Positions 24,830 through 42,995 of a stretch of DNA of 64,000 nucleotides are shown piece after piece (position 1 is the first letter of the stretch; each line of letters starts with the position of its first letter). A program made the translations under genes and the position numbers. Where the stretch lies: sequence record PQ341120.1; one strand, given 5' to 3'. The notes under the pieces are model-generated. The model had not been told where the DNA came from. It was given only the letters and a program-made list of their open reading frames with translations, and made no database searches. This DNA is from Escherichia phage EAWsc9.

Positions 24830-25288
24830 TTAGATATAAATCACTTTTGTGCTAATTTTTCCTTCCAGACGATTAGAGTTAACAAACGCCATACGACAAC
24901 ACATGGTCGGAGACTTCCCAGGAATAGCGGGGTTAACTGTCATTCCTAACCATAGGTTCTTGTCCGTGATTTCCAGACGAAGTGGACGGTAGTTCACATT
25001 CGGGTCAATTTGTGCTTCAACTTCCGGGAGTGGTTTCATCTCCAAGAATTCAACGATTTCTTTTACATGTGGTGTGATTTTTCCAAACAAGTCAAAAACA
25101 TATTGTTCATCAATTTCACGTTGGATTGCACGGTCCAACAGGTGCGGACTGTACTTAATGAAGAATGCTTCAAGGCCTGCTTCTTTACAAGCCTTGTTGA
25201 TAGCATTATTAATTTTGAGGAACTCCGTTTCAAAAATGCGACGAAGTTTATTGCGGCGAATGTAAACACTTGAATCGATAGTAGTCAT
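24830..25288 (-). CDS. regB: RegB site-specific endoribonuclease
   Basis: internal ATG at 25288 behind AAGGAG gives 152 aa; VYIRRNKLRRIFETEF...KYSPHLLDRAIQREIDEQYVF matches T4 RegB from memory. Confidence 0.85.
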   Translation of the reverse strand: MTTIDSSVYIRRNKLRRIFETEFLKINNAINKACKEAGLEAFFIKYSPHLLDRAIQREIDEQYVFDLFGKITPHVKEIVEFLEMKPLPEVEAQIDPNVNYRPLRLEITDKNLWLGMTVNPAIPGKSPTMCCRMAFVNSNRLEGKISTKVIYI

Positions 25289-25344
25289 GATTATCTCCTT
25301 TTGTTTGATGGGATAATCATAACTCATTTCAATCTGCTTGTACA

Positions 25345-25924
<580 letters not shown>

Positions 25925-25928
<4 letters not shown>

Positions 25929-26143
25929 TTCACTTCCTCATCAGATGCAGTATCATATTCTACCAAACGAAGGCCATCATATCCGCCACGAACAGAGATA
26001 TACGTACTCGGATAAACAATTTCTTTACCATTCCATTGGCCACCGTCCCAACATTCCATAAAGCCTTGTTCGCCCTGTTCGTGGAACCAGTCAACAAACA
26101 GCTTCAGAGCTTCTTCAGAACCTTCAATTGTCAATTTAGACAT
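25925..26143 (-). CDS. hypothetical protein
   Basis: 72-aa minus ORF. Confidence 0.3.
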
Positions 26144-26432
26144 ATTTTTTCCAATCAGAAATCATATGAATCTCTTGGTCATAAGTCAAGAGACTACGAG
26201 TAATAATACCCTTACAAGGCCCAGAGATGAACTCGAGAGTAAAGTAAGGAACCTGTTTCATTAATCGGATACTTGGAGCATGACATCTAAAACGAGAGCC
26301 CTTAAAGGGCCCCGACATGAATACATATTCTAATGGATAGAAATAAGCATATTCAAAATTTGTAGTAAGGTCCTCTCTTCGGACCTTACGTGAGAAATAG
26401 CAGAACTCAAAAAGTTCTTCATCAGTCATCAT
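26136..26432 (-). CDS. hypothetical protein
   Basis: 98-aa minus ORF. Confidence 0.35.
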   Translation of the reverse strand: MMTDEELFEFCYFSRKVRREDLTTNFEYAYFYPLEYVFMSGPFKGSRFRCHAPSIRLMKQVPYFTLEFISGPCKGIITRSLLTYDQEIHMISDWKKYV

Positions 26433-26956
26433 TGCATTCCTATCACAAAGAACAGTGGCAGAGGTTTAGAACCTTGGCACATAAATTTATTCATCATTGT
26501 CTGATAAGCTTCATAGAACTTATCCATCGCTGGTAGGCGAATAGGCTCTTCAATAATAATCAATAATCGGGTAACAGATAGTCCACGGTACTTGTGAAAA
26601 TTATCTTCGTCTAAAAATGAACGAACAGTATCATATACAACAAACCCCGGTCGTTCAACATTAAGATGTGGTTGAGCTTTAGAAACCCGTTTTATTATAT
26701 TACAGATTTCTCGTGAGCGATGCGAAGAACTCGACATAACAATCACATCATTACCCTTAGAAACCCAATCCACAGCAAACTGTGCAATGGCACTTGTTTT
26801 ACCTGTTTGTCTTCCGCCGTCAAGTCTAAGAGTACCAAACTCTTGCATTCTTGAAGCGGGTTCATACCAGGCGTATTGGTCTGAATCTAAGCGTTCAATG
26901 GCGCGTTCAGCGAAGGCGTGCATTAAGGTTAGATAAATTGGAGTTAAAAATTTCAT
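26429..26956 (-). CDS. P-loop NTPase-like protein
   Basis: 175 aa; Walker A-like GGRQTGKTS. Confidence 0.4.
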   Translation of the reverse strand: MKFLTPIYLTLMHAFAERAIERLDSDQYAWYEPASRMQEFGTLRLDGGRQTGKTSAIAQFAVDWVSKGNDVIVMSSSSHRSREICNIIKRVSKAQPHLNVERPGFVVYDTVRSFLDEDNFHKYRGLSVTRLLIIIEEPIRLPAMDKFYEAYQTMMNKFMCQGSKPLPLFFVIGMQ

Positions 26957-27105
26957 AGTTGTCTCTTAATTGTGGGGCCGTTCCTTGGCACATTAATTCA
27001 TCCCTTTCTGCATTTACCCATTACCGCACTTGGGCTCGACCTTATTACAGGTTGGTGGGAGTCCCTCACAGAATTGTGAGGTCCAGGTTGCTCCCCATTT
27101 AATTA

Positions 27106-27366
27106 TTACGCTTTACCGCCGGAAACAATACCAAAGGTCTCAAAGTCCCATTCAATATCATCAACATCAACTTTCTTACCAGCAACCACGAATGCGATTT
27201 CGCGACGTTTTGCATAGGTGACAATTTCTTTACCATCACCACCAAAGAAAGAATAACCATTGCGCTTCATGGTGCCAAAGTCTTCAGCATCGCCAGCAAA
27301 GGCGCGAACTTTAAAAGCACCAGTAGGAGCTTTGGCTTCTGTGATAAATTCTTGATAAGTTTTCAT
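27106..27366 (-). CDS. internal-protein-like protein with N-terminal capsid-targeting sequence
   Basis: ATG at 27366 gives 86 aa starting MKTYQEFITEAK; 5' DNA end nearly identical to those of the 40042 and 40353 genes. Confidence 0.55.
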   Translation of the reverse strand: MKTYQEFITEAKAPTGAFKVRAFAGDAEDFGTMKRNGYSFFGGDGKEIVTYAKRREIAFVVAGKKVDVDDIEWDFETFGIVSGGKA

Positions 27367-27414
27367 TTTATATTCCATTGTTTGGTTGATAAAATCATTA
27401 TACAACCTTTTTAG

Positions 27415-27831
27415 TTAAGCGTACACAGCTTTCCCATAGTATTTGTACCAGGTAGGCTTTTGAGAAATTTTCTCATTCAGTCTGGCTTGACTGATTTCAA
27501 TTGACCAGATTGATGGTTGATAATCATTCTTCCATTCATCAGGAATATCAGTTAAATCTTGGGTAGAAATATCTTTTATGTTAAACCCTCGCTTTAAACA
27601 TTCCGCAATAAGTTCTTGATGCCGGTTTTTAAGGAACAAAAGCTTATCATAAAAGAAGGTGACATGACCAGTCCCTAAAAGGAAAGATGATGGGATTTTA
27701 AAGTCAGACACCTTTTTACCATTTTGCACATGCTTACGAACAGCGCCAAAAACGCGAGGAAGTTCACGATATTCAGCCATAAGATGTTGGTCAGCGAGTT
27801 CAGATACCAGGGTTAAATTAATGCGAGTCAT
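27415..27831 (-). CDS. denV: DenV endonuclease V (pyrimidine-dimer DNA glycosylase)
   Basis: 138 aa; [35 protein letters not shown]...[11 protein letters not shown] near-identical to T4 DenV from memory. Confidence 0.92.
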
Positions 27832-27857
27832 GTTTGTTCTCCGTAGTTGATAGGGTC

Positions 27858-27887
27858 ATTATAACCCTATCATTTGGAGATGTACAC
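27858..27887 (-). promoter_or_regulatory. early sigma70-type promoter upstream of denV
   Basis: plus attata 27858-27863 and tgtacac 27881-27887, 17-bp spacer; overlaps palindrome gatagggt...accctatc. Confidence 0.45.
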
Positions 27888-28375
27888 TAATATGCGTCAA
27901 AAGTTCCGGTGCGGAAAGTTTCAATAACTCGTTTAGCCCGGTTCGGAGTCTGGACTTTATACCATCTTGAGTCTGCCAGTTCCTTGGCAGCCGCTTCCCA
28001 TGATTTAGCCTTCAGCAATCGCATACCCTTAGGAAAACCAGCAACACCAGCAACACCCATCTGGAATACCATATTAATGAGTGCACAACGACGAACTTCA
28101 TCAAGTACATCATAAACAGGTTTTAAGACAGGATGTCTCAAGATTCCGGCTTTAGCCTTTTCGACCGAACGGTTAAACAGTGTTTCGGCTTCGTGCTGGG
28201 TTATACGACCATTACAGACGCGACCCATGAGCTTATCGAGCTCGGCGCGAGCAACATCTTTTGATGGGTTCTTAGTTATCAGTTGCCCGATACCAATGGT
28301 CCAATAGCCTTCAGTATCTTTATACAAATCCAACTTACAACCTTCATCTATGCGTAACATTTCGAATATATTCAT
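27887..28375 (-). CDS. e: lysozyme (endolysin, T4 e-type)
   Basis: 162 aa; [12 protein letters not shown]...[13 protein letters not shown] with catalytic E11/D20/T26 context; matches T4 lysozyme from memory. Confidence 0.92.
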
Positions 28376-28403
28376 AATACCCCCTTATATAGGGGTATTT
28401 ATT
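28376..28403 (-). promoter_or_regulatory. 5' leader hairpin covering the e ribosome-binding site, with a late-promoter-like AATAAATA box
   Basis: plus aatacccc(28376-28383)/ggggtatt(28392-28399) inverted repeat directly upstream of the e ATG; AATAAATA on the mRNA strand at 28396-28403. Confidence 0.5.
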
Positions 28404-28860
28404 ATCCGAAAATTTGAGTCATTACCTTGTACATCGATTTGCCCATCACATACTGCCATTGACTCGGTTTAATCAGAGCAAATGCATCGAACTCTGGAAC
28501 CGAACTACCATCCGGAAAGGTATGATAGGCAGAGCATTTACTATGTCTGAACTGCTCATGCTCGACCGGAACCGTGTACAAAAACAGGTGAAGATTTTTG
28601 TTATCTGAATAACGGAACTCACCTAAGTCTTTTAAGAATGCTGGGTCGTATTGGGTAAACCCGGTTTCTTCTTCGGTTTCACGGATAGCCGCTTCAATCG
28701 GGGATTCACCAGCTTCAACATGACCCTTAGGGATGTCCCATTTGTGTGCAGGCATACCTGGTTTACGAGAACCAGTCACACGACCCATGAATAACTCTTT
28801 ATCTTCAGTCATGAAAATAATGCCGGCGGATAATTCTTTCACCTTGTTTTTCTTACTCAT
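28402..28860 (-). CDS. nudE: NudE Nudix hydrolase
   Basis: ATG at 28860 gives 152 aa; Nudix box GHVEAGESPIEAAIRETEEETG. Confidence 0.75.
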   Translation of the reverse strand: MSKKNKVKELSAGIIFMTEDKELFMGRVTGSRKPGMPAHKWDIPKGHVEAGESPIEAAIRETEEETGFTQYDPAFLKDLGEFRYSDNKNLHLFLYTVPVEHEQFRHSKCSAYHTFPDGSSVPEFDAFALIKPSQWQYVMGKSMYKVMTQIFG

Positions 28861-29089
28861 CGTCACGTTTCCATGATTGGTTAAAAATATCACTCATTAA
28901 AAATTCAAGTCTATTTTCCAATGAAGGGCTTTCACTACTAGAAACTTGAACCATATAGTCAGCAATAGGTCGGAACATATCCAAGTCAGTTTCTAAATCA
29001 TCTTTGATTTTCTCTTCTGATGTACCTGTATCATAGGAATACAGATAAGAATCGCATGACTCAGATTTAATATAAATTGCAATACTCAT
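28853..29089 (-). CDS. hypothetical acidic protein
   Basis: 78-aa minus ORF. Confidence 0.3.
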   Translation of the reverse strand: MSIAIYIKSESCDSYLYSYDTGTSEEKIKDDLETDLDMFRPIADYMVQVSSSESPSLENRLEFLMSDIFNQSWKRDDE

Positions 29090-29673
29090 TTACGACATTC
29101 CTCAATAAAGGAGTTCAATGTATTTTTCTTAGTGATATCGTCATATACCTTTTTAACTTTAGAAATACGAAAAGGTACTTCAATAACCATAGTCCATAAA
29201 AATGATGCAATAAGCCCAGCGAGAGCAGTAGAAAAGCACGCACCCATTACAGCTACTGGTGCTTCATTTTTGCCTGTCAAGAAAAACCACAGGAATGGTA
29301 AAAATAAGATTCCAGCCCAGGCATAAAACCTGGAACAAATTAACTTATCAAATTCATCACTCCAGGTACGAAATCCATATTTCTTGCTATAAGAAATTAA
29401 TGGGTCGGGTGTCTGTTCTTTGAGCGGTTCTGGTTGATGCCCATTAATGATGTATCCCATTTTATATTCCTTAATTAAAAGCTCTTTCACATGACGATTG
29501 CATCGCGACCAATCAACATTTTCCACCTTGATTCCTTCATCACCATCATCAAGGTTCGCCCAATATTTTTTGGTAATCATAAATTCGTCTCTTGATACAA
29601 TTATACCTGCATTTTCTGCCCGGCGGATGAAGTTTACATCAACACCCATGCAGCCGGGTTCATAAAGGGCCAT
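29086..29673 (-). CDS. hypothetical membrane protein with C-terminal FIEECRK motif
   Basis: 195 aa; hydrophobic helices in the C-terminal half; ends ...TLNSFIEECRK. Confidence 0.4.
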   Translation of the reverse strand: MALYEPGCMGVDVNFIRRAENAGIIVSRDEFMITKKYWANLDDGDEGIKVENVDWSRCNRHVKELLIKEYKMGYIINGHQPEPLKEQTPDPLISYSKKYGFRTWSDEFDKLICSRFYAWAGILFLPFLWFFLTGKNEAPVAVMGACFSTALAGLIASFLWTMVIEVPFRISKVKKVYDDITKKNTLNSFIEECRK

Positions 29674-30365
29674 TACCAGCCCTCCATGGGGAATTCCAGA
29701 TATACTTGAGCATTAACGCGGATTTCATTGGTAACTTTATTAACACGGTCAGTTTTACGAGATACGCGACCAAACCAACGCCAACCGTTACTAACTGTTT
29801 TTGTTCCAGTATGCCATGTCTGCCAGTTGAATTCACATAATGTGCGGTCAGGAGCTTCTTGAACTAAAAGTTCACCTGCCTTGATTTTTTCCAGAACTTC
29901 CTGGTGCCACTGGCGATAGATAAGTTCGCCATCAGGAATCTGACTGAATTCTGCAGTTCCAAGAGCAAAATTAGTAGGGCAAACAGAAGCGTTAACCAGA
30001 CCCAGGATGTGTTCAGAATGGTAACGAGGGTTATCATAATCAGGTTGTCCTGCTGTAATAAAATGTTGTCCTGCTGGAATATCTGGACGTGGTACATCAT
30101 CATGGTGATACCCAGGGATAGCGGGATACCAACCAGGCATCAACATATGGACGCGAGAATCAAACACCAAATTATCAGGACCATCAGTCCATTCTTTTGG
30201 TAGGTTATCAAGAAAACTGCGCGTGATTGGGCCACCATGCTTATGCGCAAATTCTGGATAGCAGTTAAAGAACATAGGCTCATTTTTGATTTGGTCATTA
30301 CTGATATCTTGAGCAAATTGACCAACTTCACGCATTTGACTATTAAAAGTTTTTGAACTATTCAT
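29673..30365 (-). CDS. hypothetical protein, His-rich
   Basis: 230 aa; several His/Asp clusters (YHHDD, HSEH) that could bind metal; fold not assigned. Confidence 0.4.
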   Translation of the reverse strand: MNSSKTFNSQMREVGQFAQDISNDQIKNEPMFFNCYPEFAHKHGGPITRSFLDNLPKEWTDGPDNLVFDSRVHMLMPGWYPAIPGYHHDDVPRPDIPAGQHFITAGQPDYDNPRYHSEHILGLVNASVCPTNFALGTAEFSQIPDGELIYRQWHQEVLEKIKAGELLVQEAPDRTLCEFNWQTWHTGTKTVSNGWRWFGRVSRKTDRVNKVTNEIRVNAQVYLEFPMEGW

Positions 30366-39417: not shown

Positions 39418-39797
39418 GTTCCTTCATCAACAATAGTATGCGTATTGGCATTAACAATCTGCCACCAGTCAAAACGGTTGGAACCATAACAAGGCTTCTT
39501 CTCGTTTTCTTTAATGATATCACGCAGTTCATCTTCAGTCGCAGCCTTTGCGATTAAGTCAGCATAACCGCCACGAGGATAATAGCTATCACCAGCAAAG
39601 AGCAAAAAGTTTGTTTTGATATTCTTGAATTCTTCAAGAGTAATAACTGTTCCACCCGGTTGAACAATATCTACATAACTATATCCTAATTTCTGTGCTT
39701 CATTTACCGCTTCGAGCAGGGTGTCGTGTGCCCACCCAATTTGACAATCTGGTTTTTCAGATGGGTTTGCCTGATAATCCGCATACACTTTATACAT
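39408..39797 (-). CDS. hypothetical protein
   Basis: ATG at 39797 behind AAAGGTGAG gives 129 aa. Confidence 0.4.
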   Translation of the reverse strand: MYKVYADYQANPSEKPDCQIGWAHDTLLEAVNEAQKLGYSYVDIVQPGGTVITLEEFKNIKTNFLLFAGDSYYPRGGYADLIAKAATEDELRDIIKENEKKPCYGSNRFDWWQIVNANTHTIVDEGTCE

Positions 39798-39798
39798 T

Positions 39799-39984
39799 TT
39801 ACTCACCTTTGGAGATTTTATCCATAACGAAAGAGATTGAACCAATTAAAAATGCAACTACTAAAGAGATTATATTCTCAGAAGTTGAAAGCATATTCAA
39901 CATAAAGCCAGCAAACATGCTAAAACCAAAAGCGGTAACAGCAACAAGGGCAGTAACATTTCTAATTAATTCGCAACGTTTCAT
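39799..39984 (-). CDS. hypothetical small membrane protein
   Basis: 61 aa, two hydrophobic helices. Confidence 0.3.
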   Translation of the reverse strand: MKRCELIRNVTALVAVTAFGFSMFAGFMLNMLSTSENIISLVVAFLIGSISFVMDKISKGE

Positions 39985-40041
39985 TTTATTCTCCTCAGTA
40001 GTTGATGGGATAATTATACGCTATCCCATTCAAAAGTACAC

Positions 40042-40296
40042 TTATTTTTTAGGGATACGATAGTAACGCATCTCAACATCTTTCTGCTTGTGCCACTTTT
40101 TGATAAGGTCTTCAGAACCTTTAATGGTAACGATGTCATAGCGACCATCATGCGATACTTCAGCACTTAACTGCATGAAGTTGTCTAGTGAACGGCGCAA
40201 TTCCTCATTAGAAAAACTACCACGCGGGGAACCAACATAAGCAAACTCAACTTTTGCATCTGCGGCTTCGTTAATAAATTCTTGATAAGTTTTCAT
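40042..40296 (-). CDS. internal-protein-like protein with capsid-targeting sequence
   Basis: 84 aa starting MKTYQEFINEAADAK. Confidence 0.55.
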   Translation of the reverse strand: MKTYQEFINEAADAKVEFAYVGSPRGSFSNEELRRSLDNFMQLSAEVSHDGRYDIVTIKGSEDLIKKWHKQKDVEMRYYRIPKK

Positions 40297-40352
40297 GTTG
40301 TCTCCAGTAGTTGATGGGATAATTATACTGCAGTTATCCCATCGCGTATACT

Positions 40353-40595
40353 TTATTTTAAGTCTTCCAGACGTTTTTTCATCTTGGTGCCATTCTTAGC
40401 AATTTCGCCAGCATCAGAACAAAGAGCGAGGAGAGCTTTAACTTTACCCTGGTCGCCTTTAAAAGATGATGCATCTACAGAATCAGCAAGTTCTTTGATA
40501 CGTGCAAACAGGCGCTCTGCTTCAGCAAGGGCTTGGCCAAGTTTAACTTCCATACCATGGGAAGATTCTGTTATAAATGTTTGATAAGTTTTCAT
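40353..40595 (-). CDS. internal-protein-like protein with capsid-targeting sequence
   Basis: ATG at 40595 behind GGAGA gives 80 aa starting MKTYQTFITESS. Confidence 0.55.
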   Translation of the reverse strand: MKTYQTFITESSHGMEVKLGQALAEAERLFARIKELADSVDASSFKGDQGKVKALLALCSDAGEIAKNGTKMKKRLEDLK

Positions 40596-40611
40596 GTTGT
40601 CTCCAAGCCAT

Positions 40612-40632
40612 AAAAAGGGGATAATTATCCCC
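40612..40632 (-). terminator. intrinsic terminator between two internal-protein genes
   Basis: palindrome GGGGATAATTATCCCC followed by TTTTTAT on the minus strand. Confidence 0.45.
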
Positions 40633-40640
40633 ATTTGTTA

Positions 40641-40940
40641 TTACATCTTACTACCACGAATTACGCCATAAGCGGCGAAGTCGTCAGTGATATTTTTAGG
40701 GGTGTTCTTACCAGTTTCAATGAAGGCAATGCTTGATTTCTGACTAAAAGAGGTAATTTTGTTATAGTTAGAGTCAAGGAAGGTATAACCATTTTTACGC
40801 AACTGGTCAAAGTCTTCAGCGTCGCCTTTACCTTTGAAGTCAACCCATTTGTAGGTGTTTTTCTTCTGAAGGCCCAGAGGCCAGGTTTTTGCTTCTGCTA
40901 GGTAATTGTTTTCTACCAAAAATTCATGAAAAGTTTGCAT
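40641..40940 (-). CDS. internal-protein-like protein with capsid-targeting sequence
   Basis: 99 aa starting MQTFHEFLVENN; shares GDAEDF...NGY[ST]F block with ORF 27106..27366. Confidence 0.5.
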   Translation of the reverse strand: MQTFHEFLVENNYLAEAKTWPLGLQKKNTYKWVDFKGKGDAEDFDQLRKNGYTFLDSNYNKITSFSQKSSIAFIETGKNTPKNITDDFAAYGVIRGSKM

Positions 40941-40948
40941 TTGAAATC

Positions 40949-41221
40949 CTATTTTAAATAAATTGCATATTTTTTATAACCAGCCGTCTCATGACGGAGA
41001 CCCTTGTCATTGGCAAAACGCTCAATGTTATTAATTTGGTTCTGGTCAAGTTCTGAAATGTCAAACGCGAAAAAGTTGCGTTTGTTGCCAATTGTTATAT
41101 GGTCAGTTAAGTCAATGCTATACAGGTGATTGATATTGTCAATCATAGCTTTGACCGCTTTACTAATTTTTACTTCTTCATTCAGTTGTGACTCGTTGAA
41201 AAATTCATTGAAAGTTTTCAT
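40949..41221 (-). CDS. internal-protein-like protein with capsid-targeting sequence
   Basis: 90 aa starting MKTFNEFFNESQ. Confidence 0.5.
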   Translation of the reverse strand: MKTFNEFFNESQLNEEVKISKAVKAMIDNINHLYSIDLTDHITIGNKRNFFAFDISELDQNQINNIERFANDKGLRHETAGYKKYAIYLK

Positions 41222-41229
41222 AAGAAACC

Positions 41230-41562
41230 TTATTTATAAAGTTTTGCCAGTTCTTTACGTCCGCGAGCAGACATAATAAATTGTTCATCGCCAATTTTAA
41301 AATAAGCCATACCGCCGTCAACAGCGATACCAATTTCTTTAGTACCTTCTTTGCCTTTCCACTTGCCACCAGATTTCAGGACAGCTTCAACTGCAGCTTT
41401 GGAATATTTGGACGTTTGAAAACGTTCATTACCAATCTGAAAGAAAACACCATCTGCATTTTTGGTTAAACCAAATTTCAGAGAGCCTTCACTATCATCA
41501 ATTGATTTGGTCTCATTGATGGCGGATTCGGCTAAAAACTCGTTGTAAGTTTTGATGTTCAT
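41230..41562 (-). CDS. internal-protein-like protein with capsid-targeting sequence
   Basis: 110 aa starting MNIKTYNEFLAESA. Confidence 0.5.
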   Translation of the reverse strand: MNIKTYNEFLAESAINETKSIDDSEGSLKFGLTKNADGVFFQIGNERFQTSKYSKAAVEAVLKSGGKWKGKEGTKEIGIAVDGGMAYFKIGDEQFIMSARGRKELAKLYK

Positions 41563-41597
41563 ATTAACTCCGTTTGTTCATTCGTTGGTGTAGGAAC

Positions 41598-41626
41598 ATA
41601 ATACTGTACCTACACTTATTTGTACA

Positions 41627-41627
<1 letters not shown>
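41598..41627 (-). promoter_or_regulatory. early sigma70-type promoter (-35 GTGTACA, 17 bp, -10 TATTAT) heading the internal-protein array
   Basis: plus ataata 41598-41603 and tgtacac 41621-41627. Confidence 0.45.
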
Positions 41628-42317
<690 letters not shown>

Positions 42318-42318
<1 letters not shown>

Positions 42319-42995
42319 TATATTACCTTATTAATTTTATCAAAAAGTTCTTCGAGTGTGCCATTGTTTTTAATAACAATGTCACTAGCTAGTGGTGGAA
42401 GTCCAGCTTCCGTAATGTGTGTATCGGTAGAATGATTTGCTTCATCGCGTTCTACAAAGATTATTGTAGCACCCATCGCCCGAAGCGAATCAAGTTCGTT
42501 CTTTTGACGAACATCTGGGACAACGTAATATTTATATCCAGAATAGAGGTTGTCAAGATAATCGCACGCAAAAGTTTTAATCCAAAACATGCTGTCGAAC
42601 TCTGTACAAACGATGTCAGTTCCAAGGGTCTGCATGAAACGTCTAACTGTCCAGGGCTCAACATTATTTAGTGTGTGAAATTCAATGATTTTACGAACCA
42701 TATCTGGATTCGGAAGGTCAAGATTGTATTGTTGTTTCAACCATTCAAGAGCATCAACCAGAAGAATATAAGCTTCGGTGTTGTTCATTATCAAGGTTTT
42801 TTCACGGTCATAACCTTGTCCATCAAAATTTTCCAGGGTCAAATTGTGTGGCAGGTCTTGACGAATCCACGCTTTATAAAGCGCTTCTTTAATCGGACCT
42901 GCAAGCTGCCACTTTGTTCCGTTTTGACTAATAACATAATCAGCAGTCGTATCTTTACCACTGCGTTTTTTGCCCACAATCGCAATTAATTTCAT
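42318..42995 (-). CDS. 1: gp1 deoxynucleoside monophosphate kinase
   Basis: 225 aa; P-loop GKKRSGKDT; position between 57A and gene 3. Confidence 0.8.

What the first reader, a model, noticed from the sequence alone, without database searches (positions are those of the whole stretch)
27106..27426. Seventh targeting-sequence gene placed between denV and regB, paralogous to one member of the main array
The ORF starts MKTYQEFITEAK and shares a GDAEDF...NGY[ST]F block with the 40641-40940 product, so the two are paralogs despite lying about 13 kb apart. It has its own promoter-like element (TATAAT at 27397-27402 revcomp, -35-like GTGTACG inside the 3' end of denV). This suggests internal-protein cassettes move between loci.
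Basis: seen in the sequence. Interest (0 to 1): 0.45.

Follow-up and report, generated by a model that had tools for sequence, protein, structure and literature searches.

The report
Known T-even internal head protein gene
The ORF is a real but ordinary internal head protein gene of a T4-like phage, sitting in the well-known second internal-protein locus beside denV; the more unusual thing is an unannotated, widely conserved structured RNA just downstream of it.

Summary
The sequence observation holds. Window 27106-27366 (minus strand) encodes an 86-aa protein, MKTYQEFITE|AKAP..., with the T4 capsid targeting sequence and a prohead-protease site. It is a true paralog of the 40641-40940 product: 36% identity over 61 aa with the targeting sequence removed, E 1e-14, and both match PHROG 2667.

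The placement is not unusual. The gene is the ortholog of RB69ORF125c, VR7ORF127c and SP18_gp123 ("internal head protein"). About 200 phage records carry it directly after denV. T4 itself keeps ipII and ipIII beside denV, so a second internal-protein locus is standard. The copy in the main array is the rarer one (about 39 records), and both copies co-occur in two genera, so the duplication is old.

Relatives carry 0-3 internal-protein genes at this locus. The window's denV junction equals the denV-ip10 junction of relatives, which points to loss of ip10 by recombination between targeting-sequence repeats.

The likely role is an injected anti-restriction protein, by analogy only.

Seen in passing: window 26974-27095 holds a covarying structured RNA motif present in more than 1000 phage records across several families. 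It is absent from Rfam and is annotated in T4 as the N-terminus of Vs.8.

The parts
27106..27366 (-). Internal head protein gene (86 aa precursor; ortholog of RB69ORF125c / VR7ORF127c / SP18_gp123)
   Evidence: ORF and translation. PHROG 2667 'internal head protein', E 8.9e-22 over residues 1-84. tblastn finds it in 208 phage records, 95-99% identical in Gaprivervirus and 60-80% in 181 others.
27337..27366 (-). Capsid targeting sequence MKTYQEFITE. The predicted prohead-protease (gp21) cut falls after Glu10 (I-T-E|A) and leaves a 76-aa mature protein of 8.2 kDa, pI 6.5.
   Evidence: 9 of 10 residues match the T4 IpII and IpIII leader MKTYQEFIAE. The role of the targeting sequence and of the cleavage is from the literature (PMC3012670). 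The cleavage itself is inferred, not shown.
27397..27426 (-). T4-type early-promoter-like element: GTGTAC (27426-27421), 18 nt, TATAAT (27402-27397). The -35-like hexamer lies inside the end of denV.
   Evidence: Sequence. It is one of 7 minus-strand and 0 plus-strand matches to GT[TG]TAC-N16-19-TAnA[AT]T; shuffles give a mean of 0.72. It is identical to the denV-ip10 junction of VR7, SP18 and UPEC01. It does not meet the generic sigma-70 scan.
27415..27831 (-). denV (endonuclease V), upstream neighbour
   Evidence: ORF. Annotated as denV under the match in SP18, VR7 and ECML-359.
40641..40940 (-). Paralog in the main (ipI-locus) array. Precursor of 99 aa with a divergent leader MQTFHEFLVE and a second possible cleavage site at LAE|A.
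   Evidence: BLASTP E 7e-16. PHROG 2667, E 5.9e-21. Orthologs at 60% identity or more occur in only about 39 phage records, listed rows being Gaprivervirus and Salmonella/Proteus phages such as STP4-a.
26974..27095 (-). Conserved structured RNA motif between the internal-protein stop codon and the vs.8 start. It has a P1 hairpin (27095-27057), a core (27056-27016) and a 3' module (26993-26974). It is not part of the gene but forms the downstream boundary of the internal-protein slot.
   Evidence: blastn finds it in 1059 phage records. P3 pairs are kept in 35 of 35 distinct sequences with 5, 5 and 3 pair types. The covariance model scores 70.4 bits at 27014-27057, the only copy in the window. 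No Rfam match.
26429..26956 (-). vs.8 (terminase-ATPase-like protein), downstream neighbour
   Evidence: PHROG 1488, E 1.6e-68, covering 1-175 of a 177-position profile. 38% identical to residues 39-219 of T4 Vs.8. Literature on Vs.8: PMC13601566.

Best explanation
This is a conventional T-even internal head protein gene at the second internal-protein locus, the denV-side locus. The proposed mechanism has five steps.

1. The gene is transcribed from the early-type promoter at the end of denV, and probably also by read-through from e and denV.
2. The 10-residue N-terminal capsid targeting sequence takes the precursor into the scaffolding core of the prohead.
3. The prohead protease cuts after Glu10 (ITE|A).
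4. The 76-residue, 8.2-kDa, compact alpha/beta mature protein stays in the head with the DNA and is injected with it.
5. In the cell it most likely blocks a host nuclease that attacks modified T-even DNA, as T4 Ip1, Ip2 and Ip3 each block one GmrSD-type restriction enzyme.

What is shown here: the gene, its leader, its family, its orthologs and its synteny. What is inferred from T4: packaging, cleavage and injection. What rests on analogy only: the anti-restriction role.

In evolutionary terms the gene is the ancestral, widely kept member of its family, and the main-array paralog is an old duplicate. The single-gene state of the locus in this phage arose from a two- or three-gene state. ip10 was lost by homologous recombination between the near-identical targeting-sequence coding repeats.
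For: Leader and family:
- MKTYQEFITE matches the T4 IpII and IpIII leader at 9 of 10 positions.
- PHROG 2667 'internal head protein', E 8.9e-22.
- Orthologs are annotated as internal head protein in RefSeq records of SP18 and VR7.

Synteny:
- The order is denV - internal-protein genes - conserved RNA - vs.8, with 0 genes in dhaeg, 1 in the window and fPSFA, 2 in UPEC01, and 3 in VR7, SP18 and RB69.
- T4 has ipIII and ipII on the other side of denV.

Loss of ip10:
- The window's denV junction is identical to the denV-ip10 junction of VR7, SP18 and UPEC01 up to and into the leader-coding sequence.
- The end of the window's leader-coding sequence resembles that of ip7.

Fold and family isolation:
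- AlphaFold2 gives a confident compact fold: pLDDT 84, order beta-alpha-beta-beta-alpha-beta-alpha-beta.
- The only structural neighbours are members of the same family.

Literature:
- T4 Ip1, Ip2 and Ip3 each inhibit a different GmrSD variant. They are encoded at two loci, and at least 10 internal proteins have been reported (PMC12373910).
- Internal proteins are a diverse set of defence proteins that share only the targeting sequence (PMC3012670).
Against: - No virion proteomics or injection data exist for this family in what I could search.
- No exact late promoter (TATAAATA) lies on the minus strand between 25000 and 30000. Expression at the time of head assembly would need read-through or a degenerate late promoter.
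- The mature protein is net neutral (pI 6.5), unlike the basic T4 IpI* and IpII.
- It has no sequence similarity to Ip1, Ip2, Ip3, ip7 or ip10 and no informative fold match, so the target is unknown.
Confidence: 0.8

Rival explanations
1. Recent inter-locus hop: the gene is a copy of the main-array member that moved lately to the denV side.
For: The two proteins are paralogs. The same internal-protein family can sit at either locus in different phages: array member 40353-40595 versus RB69ORF127c, E 4e-22.
Against: The copies are only 30-36% identical. The denV-side copy is in about 204 records at 60% identity or more, including RB69-like phages that show only one place, while the array copy is in about 39. 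Both copies are conserved side by side in 37 records.
Confidence: 0.05
2. A generic DNA-associated head filler: a packaged protein whose role is structural or charge-related, with no specific host target.
For: Internal proteins are abundant and embedded in the packaged DNA, about 1000 molecules per T4 head (PMC3012670). No target is known for this family.
Against: The mature protein is net neutral, with 12 K+R against 12 D+E. It has a conserved, well-ordered fold and is kept at 72-99% identity across the listed lineages. All three T4 internal proteins turned out to have specific targets (PMC12373910).
Confidence: 0.1
3. An early cytoplasmic protein that is not packaged: the leader is a relic and the protein acts only inside the infected cell.
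For: Only an early-type promoter is recognisable directly upstream, and no exact late promoter lies nearby.
Against: The leader is conserved to the residue, cleavage site included, in all orthologs. T4 ipII and ipIII also have GTTTAC-type early promoters directly upstream and are packaged.
Confidence: 0.05

Closest known systems
RB69ORF125c / VR7ORF127c / SP18_gp123 'internal head protein' (PHROG 2667)
   Same: Ortholog: 72-99% amino-acid identity, same length, same leader, and the same denV-vs.8 slot (directly after denV in RB69).
   Different: In this phage, and in fPSFA, it is the only internal-protein gene at the locus. It has inherited the upstream region that belongs to ip10 in VR7, SP18 and UPEC01. 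Its leader is one residue shorter (ITEAKAP against ITESAKAP).
T4 internal proteins IpI*, IpII and IpIII (injected inhibitors of GmrSD-type type IV restriction enzymes)
   Same: Same N-terminal targeting sequence and cleavage motif. Small size: the mature form is 76 aa, the same length as IpI*. Located in one of the two polymorphic internal-protein loci beside denV and e.
   Different: No sequence similarity outside the leader. IpI* does not appear among the fold matches. The protein is net neutral rather than basic. The target is unknown. T4's genes lie between e and denV, whereas this one lies between denV and vs.8.
Internal-protein locus shuffling and PeSL-mediated modular exchange in T4-like phages (Repoila 1994; Arbiol 2010; Comeau 2014)
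   Same: Presence/absence and order polymorphism of small cassettes flanked by conserved sequence, with early promoters in the junctions.
   Different: The repeat that best explains the ip10 loss here is the leader-coding sequence itself, not a promoter/stem-loop element. The downstream boundary is a conserved structured RNA, not a PeSL.

Membership tests
T4-type internal head proteins (proteins bearing the capsid targeting sequence) | N-terminal capsid targeting sequence close to MKTYQEFIAE | tested here: met
   MKTYQEFITE, 9 of 10 identical to T4 IpII and IpIII.
T4-type internal head proteins (proteins bearing the capsid targeting sequence) | Prohead-protease cleavage motif (I/L-x-E followed by a small residue) at the end of the leader | tested here: met
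   I-T-E|A at residues 8-11. The motif is known from T4. The cleavage itself was not observed.
T4-type internal head proteins (proteins bearing the capsid targeting sequence) | Encoded in one of the two polymorphic internal-protein loci (next to 57B, or next to denV and e) | tested here: met
   The order is e - denV - this gene - vs.8. T4 has ipIII and ipII between e and denV.
T4-type internal head proteins (proteins bearing the capsid targeting sequence) | Physically present in the virion and injected with the DNA | not testable with these tools
   No proteomic report for this family was found.
PHROG 2667 / RB69ORF125c family | Full-length profile match and orthologous position | tested here: met
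   E 8.9e-22 over residues 1-84. 204 records at 60% identity or more. Same denV-vs.8 slot in RB69, VR7, SP18, UPEC01 and fPSFA.
GmrSD (type IV restriction) inhibitors Ip1, Ip2 and Ip3 | Sequence or fold homology to a characterised inhibitor | tested here: not met
   No BLASTP hit outside the leader. No PDB fold match below E 0.3.
GmrSD (type IV restriction) inhibitors Ip1, Ip2 and Ip3 | Inhibits a type IV restriction enzyme on injection | not testable with these tools
   This needs plating and complementation assays as in PMC12373910.
PeSL (promoter-early stem-loop) cassette junction | Early promoter TTTACW-N17-TAYWAT preceded by a stem-loop, in the intergenic junction | tested here: inconclusive
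   The -10 TATAAT fits. The -35 GTGTAC/TGTACG with an 18/17-nt spacer deviates at two positions. I did not look for a stem-loop, and the -35-like hexamer lies inside denV coding sequence.
Rfam families (for the adjacent RNA motif) | Covariance-model match | tested here: not met
   No hit at E up to 1 in window 26300-27900. No hit at the motif in naswa, Ivi or KIL5 at E up to 5.

The most novel reading that the evidence does not exclude
The internal-protein slot is bounded downstream by an undescribed class of phage structured RNA (window 26974-27095).

Its 44-nt core is nearly invariant. The closing helix covaries in 35 of 35 distinct sequences. The motif occurs in more than 1000 phage records: T4-like phages, where it lies upstream of vs.8 in every locus examined; a Vequintavirus and a Flaumdravirus, where it lies in or beside tRNA clusters; and 45-70-kb phages.

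It could be a stable trans-acting small RNA or decoy, or in T4-like phages a riboswitch-like leader of vs.8. Its invariant core could also serve as the downstream homology arm for exchange of internal-protein cassettes.

The gene in the finding remains ordinary under this reading.
Probability: 0.5. Interest if true: 0.6.

Novelty: already known. Interest (0 to 1): 0.2.

Why it matters
The gene itself adds little. It is one more member of an annotated internal-protein family, in a locus known to be polymorphic since 1994. Its practical value is as a candidate injected anti-restriction protein with an orphan fold and no known target. It could be screened against the diverse type IV restriction enzymes of wild E. 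coli, Shigella and Salmonella, as was done for T4 Ip2 and Ip3.

Two by-products may matter more.

- There is a sequence-level trace showing that the leader-coding repeats themselves act as recombination sites that add or delete internal-protein cassettes.
- The adjacent conserved structured RNA is unannotated, is mis-assigned in T4 to the N-terminus of Vs.8, and is shared by unrelated phage families. Vs.8 has just been reported to activate the Avs2 immune sensor, so its true start codon and any RNA control of its expression are of current interest.

Tried and rejected
- **Word-indexed protein search.** It gave only 3 close homologs.
- **Exhaustive profile search.** It added four small family members and two truncated fragments (P0009, P0011, P0013, P0004; P0014, P0017). 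The long multi-repeat proteins inspected (P0005, P0010: repeated 'TGTGFG...GNVWLGS' units) are repeat and composition artefacts, and I disregarded them.
- **Pfam.** No family for either paralog.
- **Fold searches.** Against PDB only weak matches, best E 0.34, TM 0.47 or lower. Against BFVD only the protein's own family. No mechanistic lead came from these.
- **Solved-structure sequence search.** Nothing.
- **Repoila 1994.** Not held. I cite it only through papers that describe it.
- **Literature searches.** Searches for ORF125c, ip7 and ip10, and for virion proteomics, returned noise.
- **Single-sequence fold of the RNA.** Not better than shuffles, z = -0.33.
- **RNAalifold on a plain MAFFT alignment.** It misaligned the two P1 classes and was uninformative.
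- **Scan of bacterial genomes.** The pattern GGTCGAGCNNNNGYGCGGTAA returned 120 hits or more. All lack the upstream hairpin and score 30 bits or less with the model, about as many as chance predicts for 596 Gb.
- **tRNA/tmRNA idea.** ARAGORN finds nothing at the motif.
- **T4 rnaC and rnaD.** The species 1 and 2 stable RNAs share no sequence with it.
- **Small conserved peptide reading of the motif.** Rejected. The frame is closed by stop codons in the window and in close T4 relatives, and the core shows no synonymous-type variation.
- **Catalogue of 8,495 IMG/VR candidate RNAs (PMC10690425).** Its supplements are not held, so I could not check whether the motif is listed.

Full report
**What is at the coordinates.**

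The window is from a T4-like phage closest to Gaprivervirus. ECML-359, SP18 and VR7 match the 26400-28400 region at 93-96% nucleotide identity, and no record matches it end to end at 99%. On the minus strand the gene order is:

- nudE (28402-28893)
- e, lysozyme (27887-28375)
- denV (27415-27831)
- the ORF of the finding
- a 149-nt spacer
- vs.8 (26429-26956)
- vs.7 and further vs genes
- regB, within the ORF 24830-25345

The mechanical ORF starts at a TTG at 27405. The start that fits every homolog is the ATG at 27366. It gives an 86-aa protein:

MKTYQEFITEAKAPTGAFKVRAFAGDAEDFGTMKRNGYSFFGGDGKEIVTYAKRREIAFVVAGKKVDVDDIEWDFETFGIVSGGKA

TATAAT is at 27402-27397. GTGTAC is at 27426-27421, in the last codons of denV, 18 nt upstream.

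**Is the paralogy real?**

Yes. BLASTP against the 40641-40940 product aligns both proteins end to end at 30% identity, E 7e-16. After removing the first 12 residues the match remains 36% over 61 aa, E 1.3e-14. It is the only significant pair among the six targeting-sequence proteins of the window. Both proteins hit the same profile over nearly their whole length: PHROG 2667 'internal head protein', E 8.9e-22 and 5.9e-21.

A pattern scan of all six frames finds five targeting-sequence ORFs in the main array (40042-41562) plus this one. That makes six in the window, not seven.

**What the gene is.**

It is the ortholog of RB69ORF125c, VR7ORF127c and SP18_gp123, which RefSeq annotates as 'internal head protein'.

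- tblastn finds it in 208 phage records.
- 21 records are 95-99% identical (the listed ones are Gaprivervirus), and 181 are 60-80% identical. The listed rows include RB69 and many RB69-like coliphages, and Salmonella phages such as S16 and STP4-a.
- In RB69, VR7, SP18, UPEC01 and fPSFA it lies in the same denV-vs.8 slot.

The leader MKTYQEFITE matches the T4 IpII and IpIII leader MKTYQEFIAE at 9 of 10 positions. It ends in I-T-E|A, the type of site cut by the T4 prohead protease. The predicted mature protein is 76 aa, 8.2 kDa, pI 6.5, with 12 basic and 12 acidic residues.

AlphaFold2 on a small family alignment gives a confident compact alpha/beta domain (mean pLDDT 84, pTM 0.73). Foldseek finds no significant neighbour in the PDB (best E 0.34). 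In BFVD it finds only members of the same family. The protein has no similarity outside the leader to T4 IpI, IpII or IpIII, or to ip7, ip10, RB69ORF123c or RB69ORF124c. An exhaustive profile search of 1.8 billion representatives adds only a handful of small phage proteins with the same leader. The long repeat proteins inspected in that list are artefacts.

**Why the position is ordinary.**

T4 encodes ipIII and ipII between e and denV, and ipI next to 57B. The literature describes two polymorphic internal-protein loci in T-even phages, with at least ten internal-protein types (PMC12373910; PMC4122927).

In the lineage of this window the internal-protein genes lie on the other side of denV. 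Their number varies among close relatives:

| Phage | Internal-protein genes between denV and vs.8 |
|---|---|
| Dhakavirus dhaeg | none |
| window, Shigella phage fPSFA | one |
| UPEC01 | two (ip10 + ORF125c-like) |
| VR7, SP18 | three (ip10, ORF125c-like, ip7) |
| RB69 | three (ORF125c, 124c, 123c) |

The gene of the finding is the member shared by all the non-empty versions.

The main-array paralog has orthologs at 60% identity or more in only about 39 records. The listed ones are Gaprivervirus phages and Salmonella/Proteus phages such as STP4-a. Exactly 37 records show two places in both searches, meaning they keep both copies. With 30-36% identity between the copies, this is an old duplication kept in two groups of phages, not a recent move. 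If a direction must be named, the denV-side copy looks ancestral.

**What does support mobility of internal-protein cassettes.**

Two observations bear on this.

First, array member 40353-40595 is 48% identical (E 4e-22) to RB69ORF127c, which in RB69 lies between e and denV. So one family occupies different loci in different phages.

Second, the window's sequence from the end of denV through the promoter-like element into the leader-coding sequence is letter for letter the denV-ip10 junction of VR7, SP18 and UPEC01:

...GCTTAACTAAAAAGGTTGTATAATGATTTTATCAACCAAACAATGGAATATAAAATGAAAACTTATCAAGAATTTAT

In those phages the ORF125c-like gene starts 13 nt after ip10, behind a different junction. The simplest history is loss of ip10 by homologous recombination between the near-identical leader-coding repeats of ip10 and the next gene.

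The end of the window's leader-coding sequence (ATCACAGAAGCCAAAG, giving ITEAKAP) resembles that of VR7 ip7 more than that of VR7ORF127c (ITESAKAP). This suggests further exchange among the repeats.

The overall picture is in line with the shuffling idea attributed to Repoila et al. 1994 and with the PeSL work. The leader-coding repeat as the crossover site is my inference from the junction sequences.

**Expression.**

It does resemble the T4-type early promoter, whose published consensus is TTTACW-N17-TAYWAT (PMC4122927).

The motif GT[TG]TAC-N16-19-TAnA[AT]T occurs 7 times on the minus strand of the window and never on the plus strand. Mononucleotide shuffles give a mean of 0.72 and a maximum of 4. 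Another copy lies just upstream of denV. T4 ipII and ipIII carry comparable GTTTAC promoters.

No exact late promoter (TATAAATA) lies on the minus strand between 25000 and 30000. The main array has one at 41238-41231. Promoter activity and timing are therefore plausible but unproven.

**Likely function.**

By homology of the leader and by position, the protein should be carried into the prohead core, trimmed after Glu10, retained with the DNA and injected. These steps are shown for T4 internal proteins, not for this one.

All three T4 internal proteins are now known to inhibit distinct GmrSD-type type IV restriction enzymes with no cross-protection (PMC12373910). An injected, target-specific anti-restriction role is therefore the best guess here.

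My estimates are:

- about 0.85 that it is a packaged internal protein
- about 0.5 that it inhibits a defence nuclease
- about 0.3 that the nuclease is a GmrSD-family enzyme

**Followed outside the coordinates: a conserved structured RNA.**

The 149-nt spacer between the internal-protein stop codon and the vs.8 start is far better conserved than its flanking genes. blastn finds it in 1059 phage records, whereas Vs.8 itself is only 38% identical between the window and T4.

*Coding status.* In T4 the element sits directly after denV and is annotated as the first 41 codons of a 219-aa Vs.8. Several facts argue that it is non-coding:

- The Vs.8 family profile (177 positions) starts at the window's MKFLT.
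- The frame is different and closed by a stop in the window.
- A TAG closes it in close T4 relatives.

The true T4 Vs.8 start is therefore probably Met42.

*Distribution.* The near-invariant core, ACCUGUAAUAAGGUCGAGCCCAAGUGCGGUAAUGG, also occurs in:

- Vequintavirus naswa, beside its tRNA cluster
- Flaumdravirus KIL5, inside a tRNA cluster
- the 45-kb phage Ivi
- several 46-96-kb viral contigs, one of which has an intrinsic terminator about 45 nt downstream

It is always co-oriented with the neighbouring genes.

*Covariation.* I built an alignment of 35 distinct cores whose columns are fixed only by their offset from invariant letters. The helix that closes the core keeps three pairs in 35 of 35 sequences, with 5, 5 and 3 different pair types. 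An invariant G is bulged after the first pair. Overall, 94.6% of cells are paired, against 77% in shuffles and 54% or less in slid controls. The register without the bulge is worse. A 5' hairpin (P1) also changes by compensatory substitutions between phage groups, although I chose those strands by eye.

*Model search.* A covariance model scores 70.4 bits at window 27014-27057, the only copy in the window. It scores 68 bits in T4. It scores 30 bits or less on 43 bacterial sequences that contain the 21-nt pattern by chance.

*Comparison with known RNAs.* The motif has no Rfam match. It is not a tRNA or tmRNA by ARAGORN. It is unrelated to T4 rnaC and rnaD.

*Possible alternative fold.* In T4-like phages a conserved 3' module (AUGYGCCANGGAAYGGCC), just before the vs.8 ribosome-binding site, can pair with parts of the core instead. 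This hints at a switch, but the evidence is only one-sided base changes.

*Function and novelty.* The function is unknown. I cannot exclude that the motif is among the 8,495 unnamed candidate RNAs of PMC10690425. Vs.8 was recently reported as a terminase-ATPase-like activator of the Avs2 sensor (PMC13601566), so its start codon and leader are of current interest.

**Verdict.**

The paralogy and a plausible promoter hold. The gene, however, is a known, annotated internal head protein in its conserved place, and the two-locus, cassette-shuffling picture is established. Interest in the finding as given is low. The adjacent RNA motif deserves its own follow-up.

Noticed in passing
window 26974-27095 (minus strand); core 27016-27056: An unannotated, highly conserved structured RNA motif lies between the internal-protein gene and vs.8. 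It is present in 1059 phage records across T4-like phages, a Vequintavirus, a Flaumdravirus and 45-96-kb phages, often in or beside tRNA clusters. Its closing helix covaries in 35 of 35 distinct sequences. It has no Rfam match, and its function is unknown.
   Followed up: partly
L004 (T4 NC_000866) 64,790-64,912, corresponding to window 26957-27105: The annotated T4 Vs.8 (219 aa) appears over-extended by 41 codons that are really the RNA motif. The family profile starts at the equivalent of Met42. The extension is out of frame or closed by stop codons in the window and in close T4 relatives.
   Followed up: partly
window 27337-27414, compared with L003 (VR7), L001 (SP18) and L160 (UPEC01): The window's denV-to-gene junction is identical to the denV-ip10 junction of relatives. 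This indicates that ip10 was deleted by recombination between the near-identical leader-coding repeats. The end of the leader-coding sequence looks like that of ip7.
   Followed up: yes
window 40353-40595 (minus strand), compared with L005 (RB69) 1741-2022: This main-array internal protein is 48% identical (E 4e-22) to RB69ORF127c, which in RB69 lies between e and denV. The same internal-protein family therefore sits at different loci in different phages.
   Followed up: yes
window minus strand: 40041-40013, 27887-27858, 27426-27397, 16367-16338, 13772-13743, 10872-10843, 4445-4418: The T4-type early-promoter-like motif GT[TG]TAC-N16-19-TAnA[AT]T occurs 7 times on the minus strand and never on the plus strand (shuffles: mean 0.72). 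In this phage the -35-like hexamer is mostly GTGTAC rather than T4's GTTTAC.
   Followed up: partly
window 41231-41238 (minus strand): This is the only exact T4 late-promoter box (TATAAATA) found in the two regions scanned (25000-30000 and 39500-42500). It lies just upstream of the 40949-41221 internal-protein gene. The denV-side gene has none.
   Followed up: no
L168 5094-5135 and L170 9137-9178 (large T4-like viral contigs; L168 comes from a 177,643-bp contig): These phages carry a second, degenerate copy of the RNA motif in tandem about 70 nt downstream of the first (41 and 26 bits with the model). Its P2 stem changes from ACCU/AGGU to GCCU/AGGC in one of them.
   Followed up: no
window 40641-40940 (minus strand): The main-array paralog has a divergent leader (MQTFHEFLVE) followed by a second possible protease site (NNYLAE|A). 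It is basic (pI 9.5), unlike the neutral denV-side copy.
   Followed up: no
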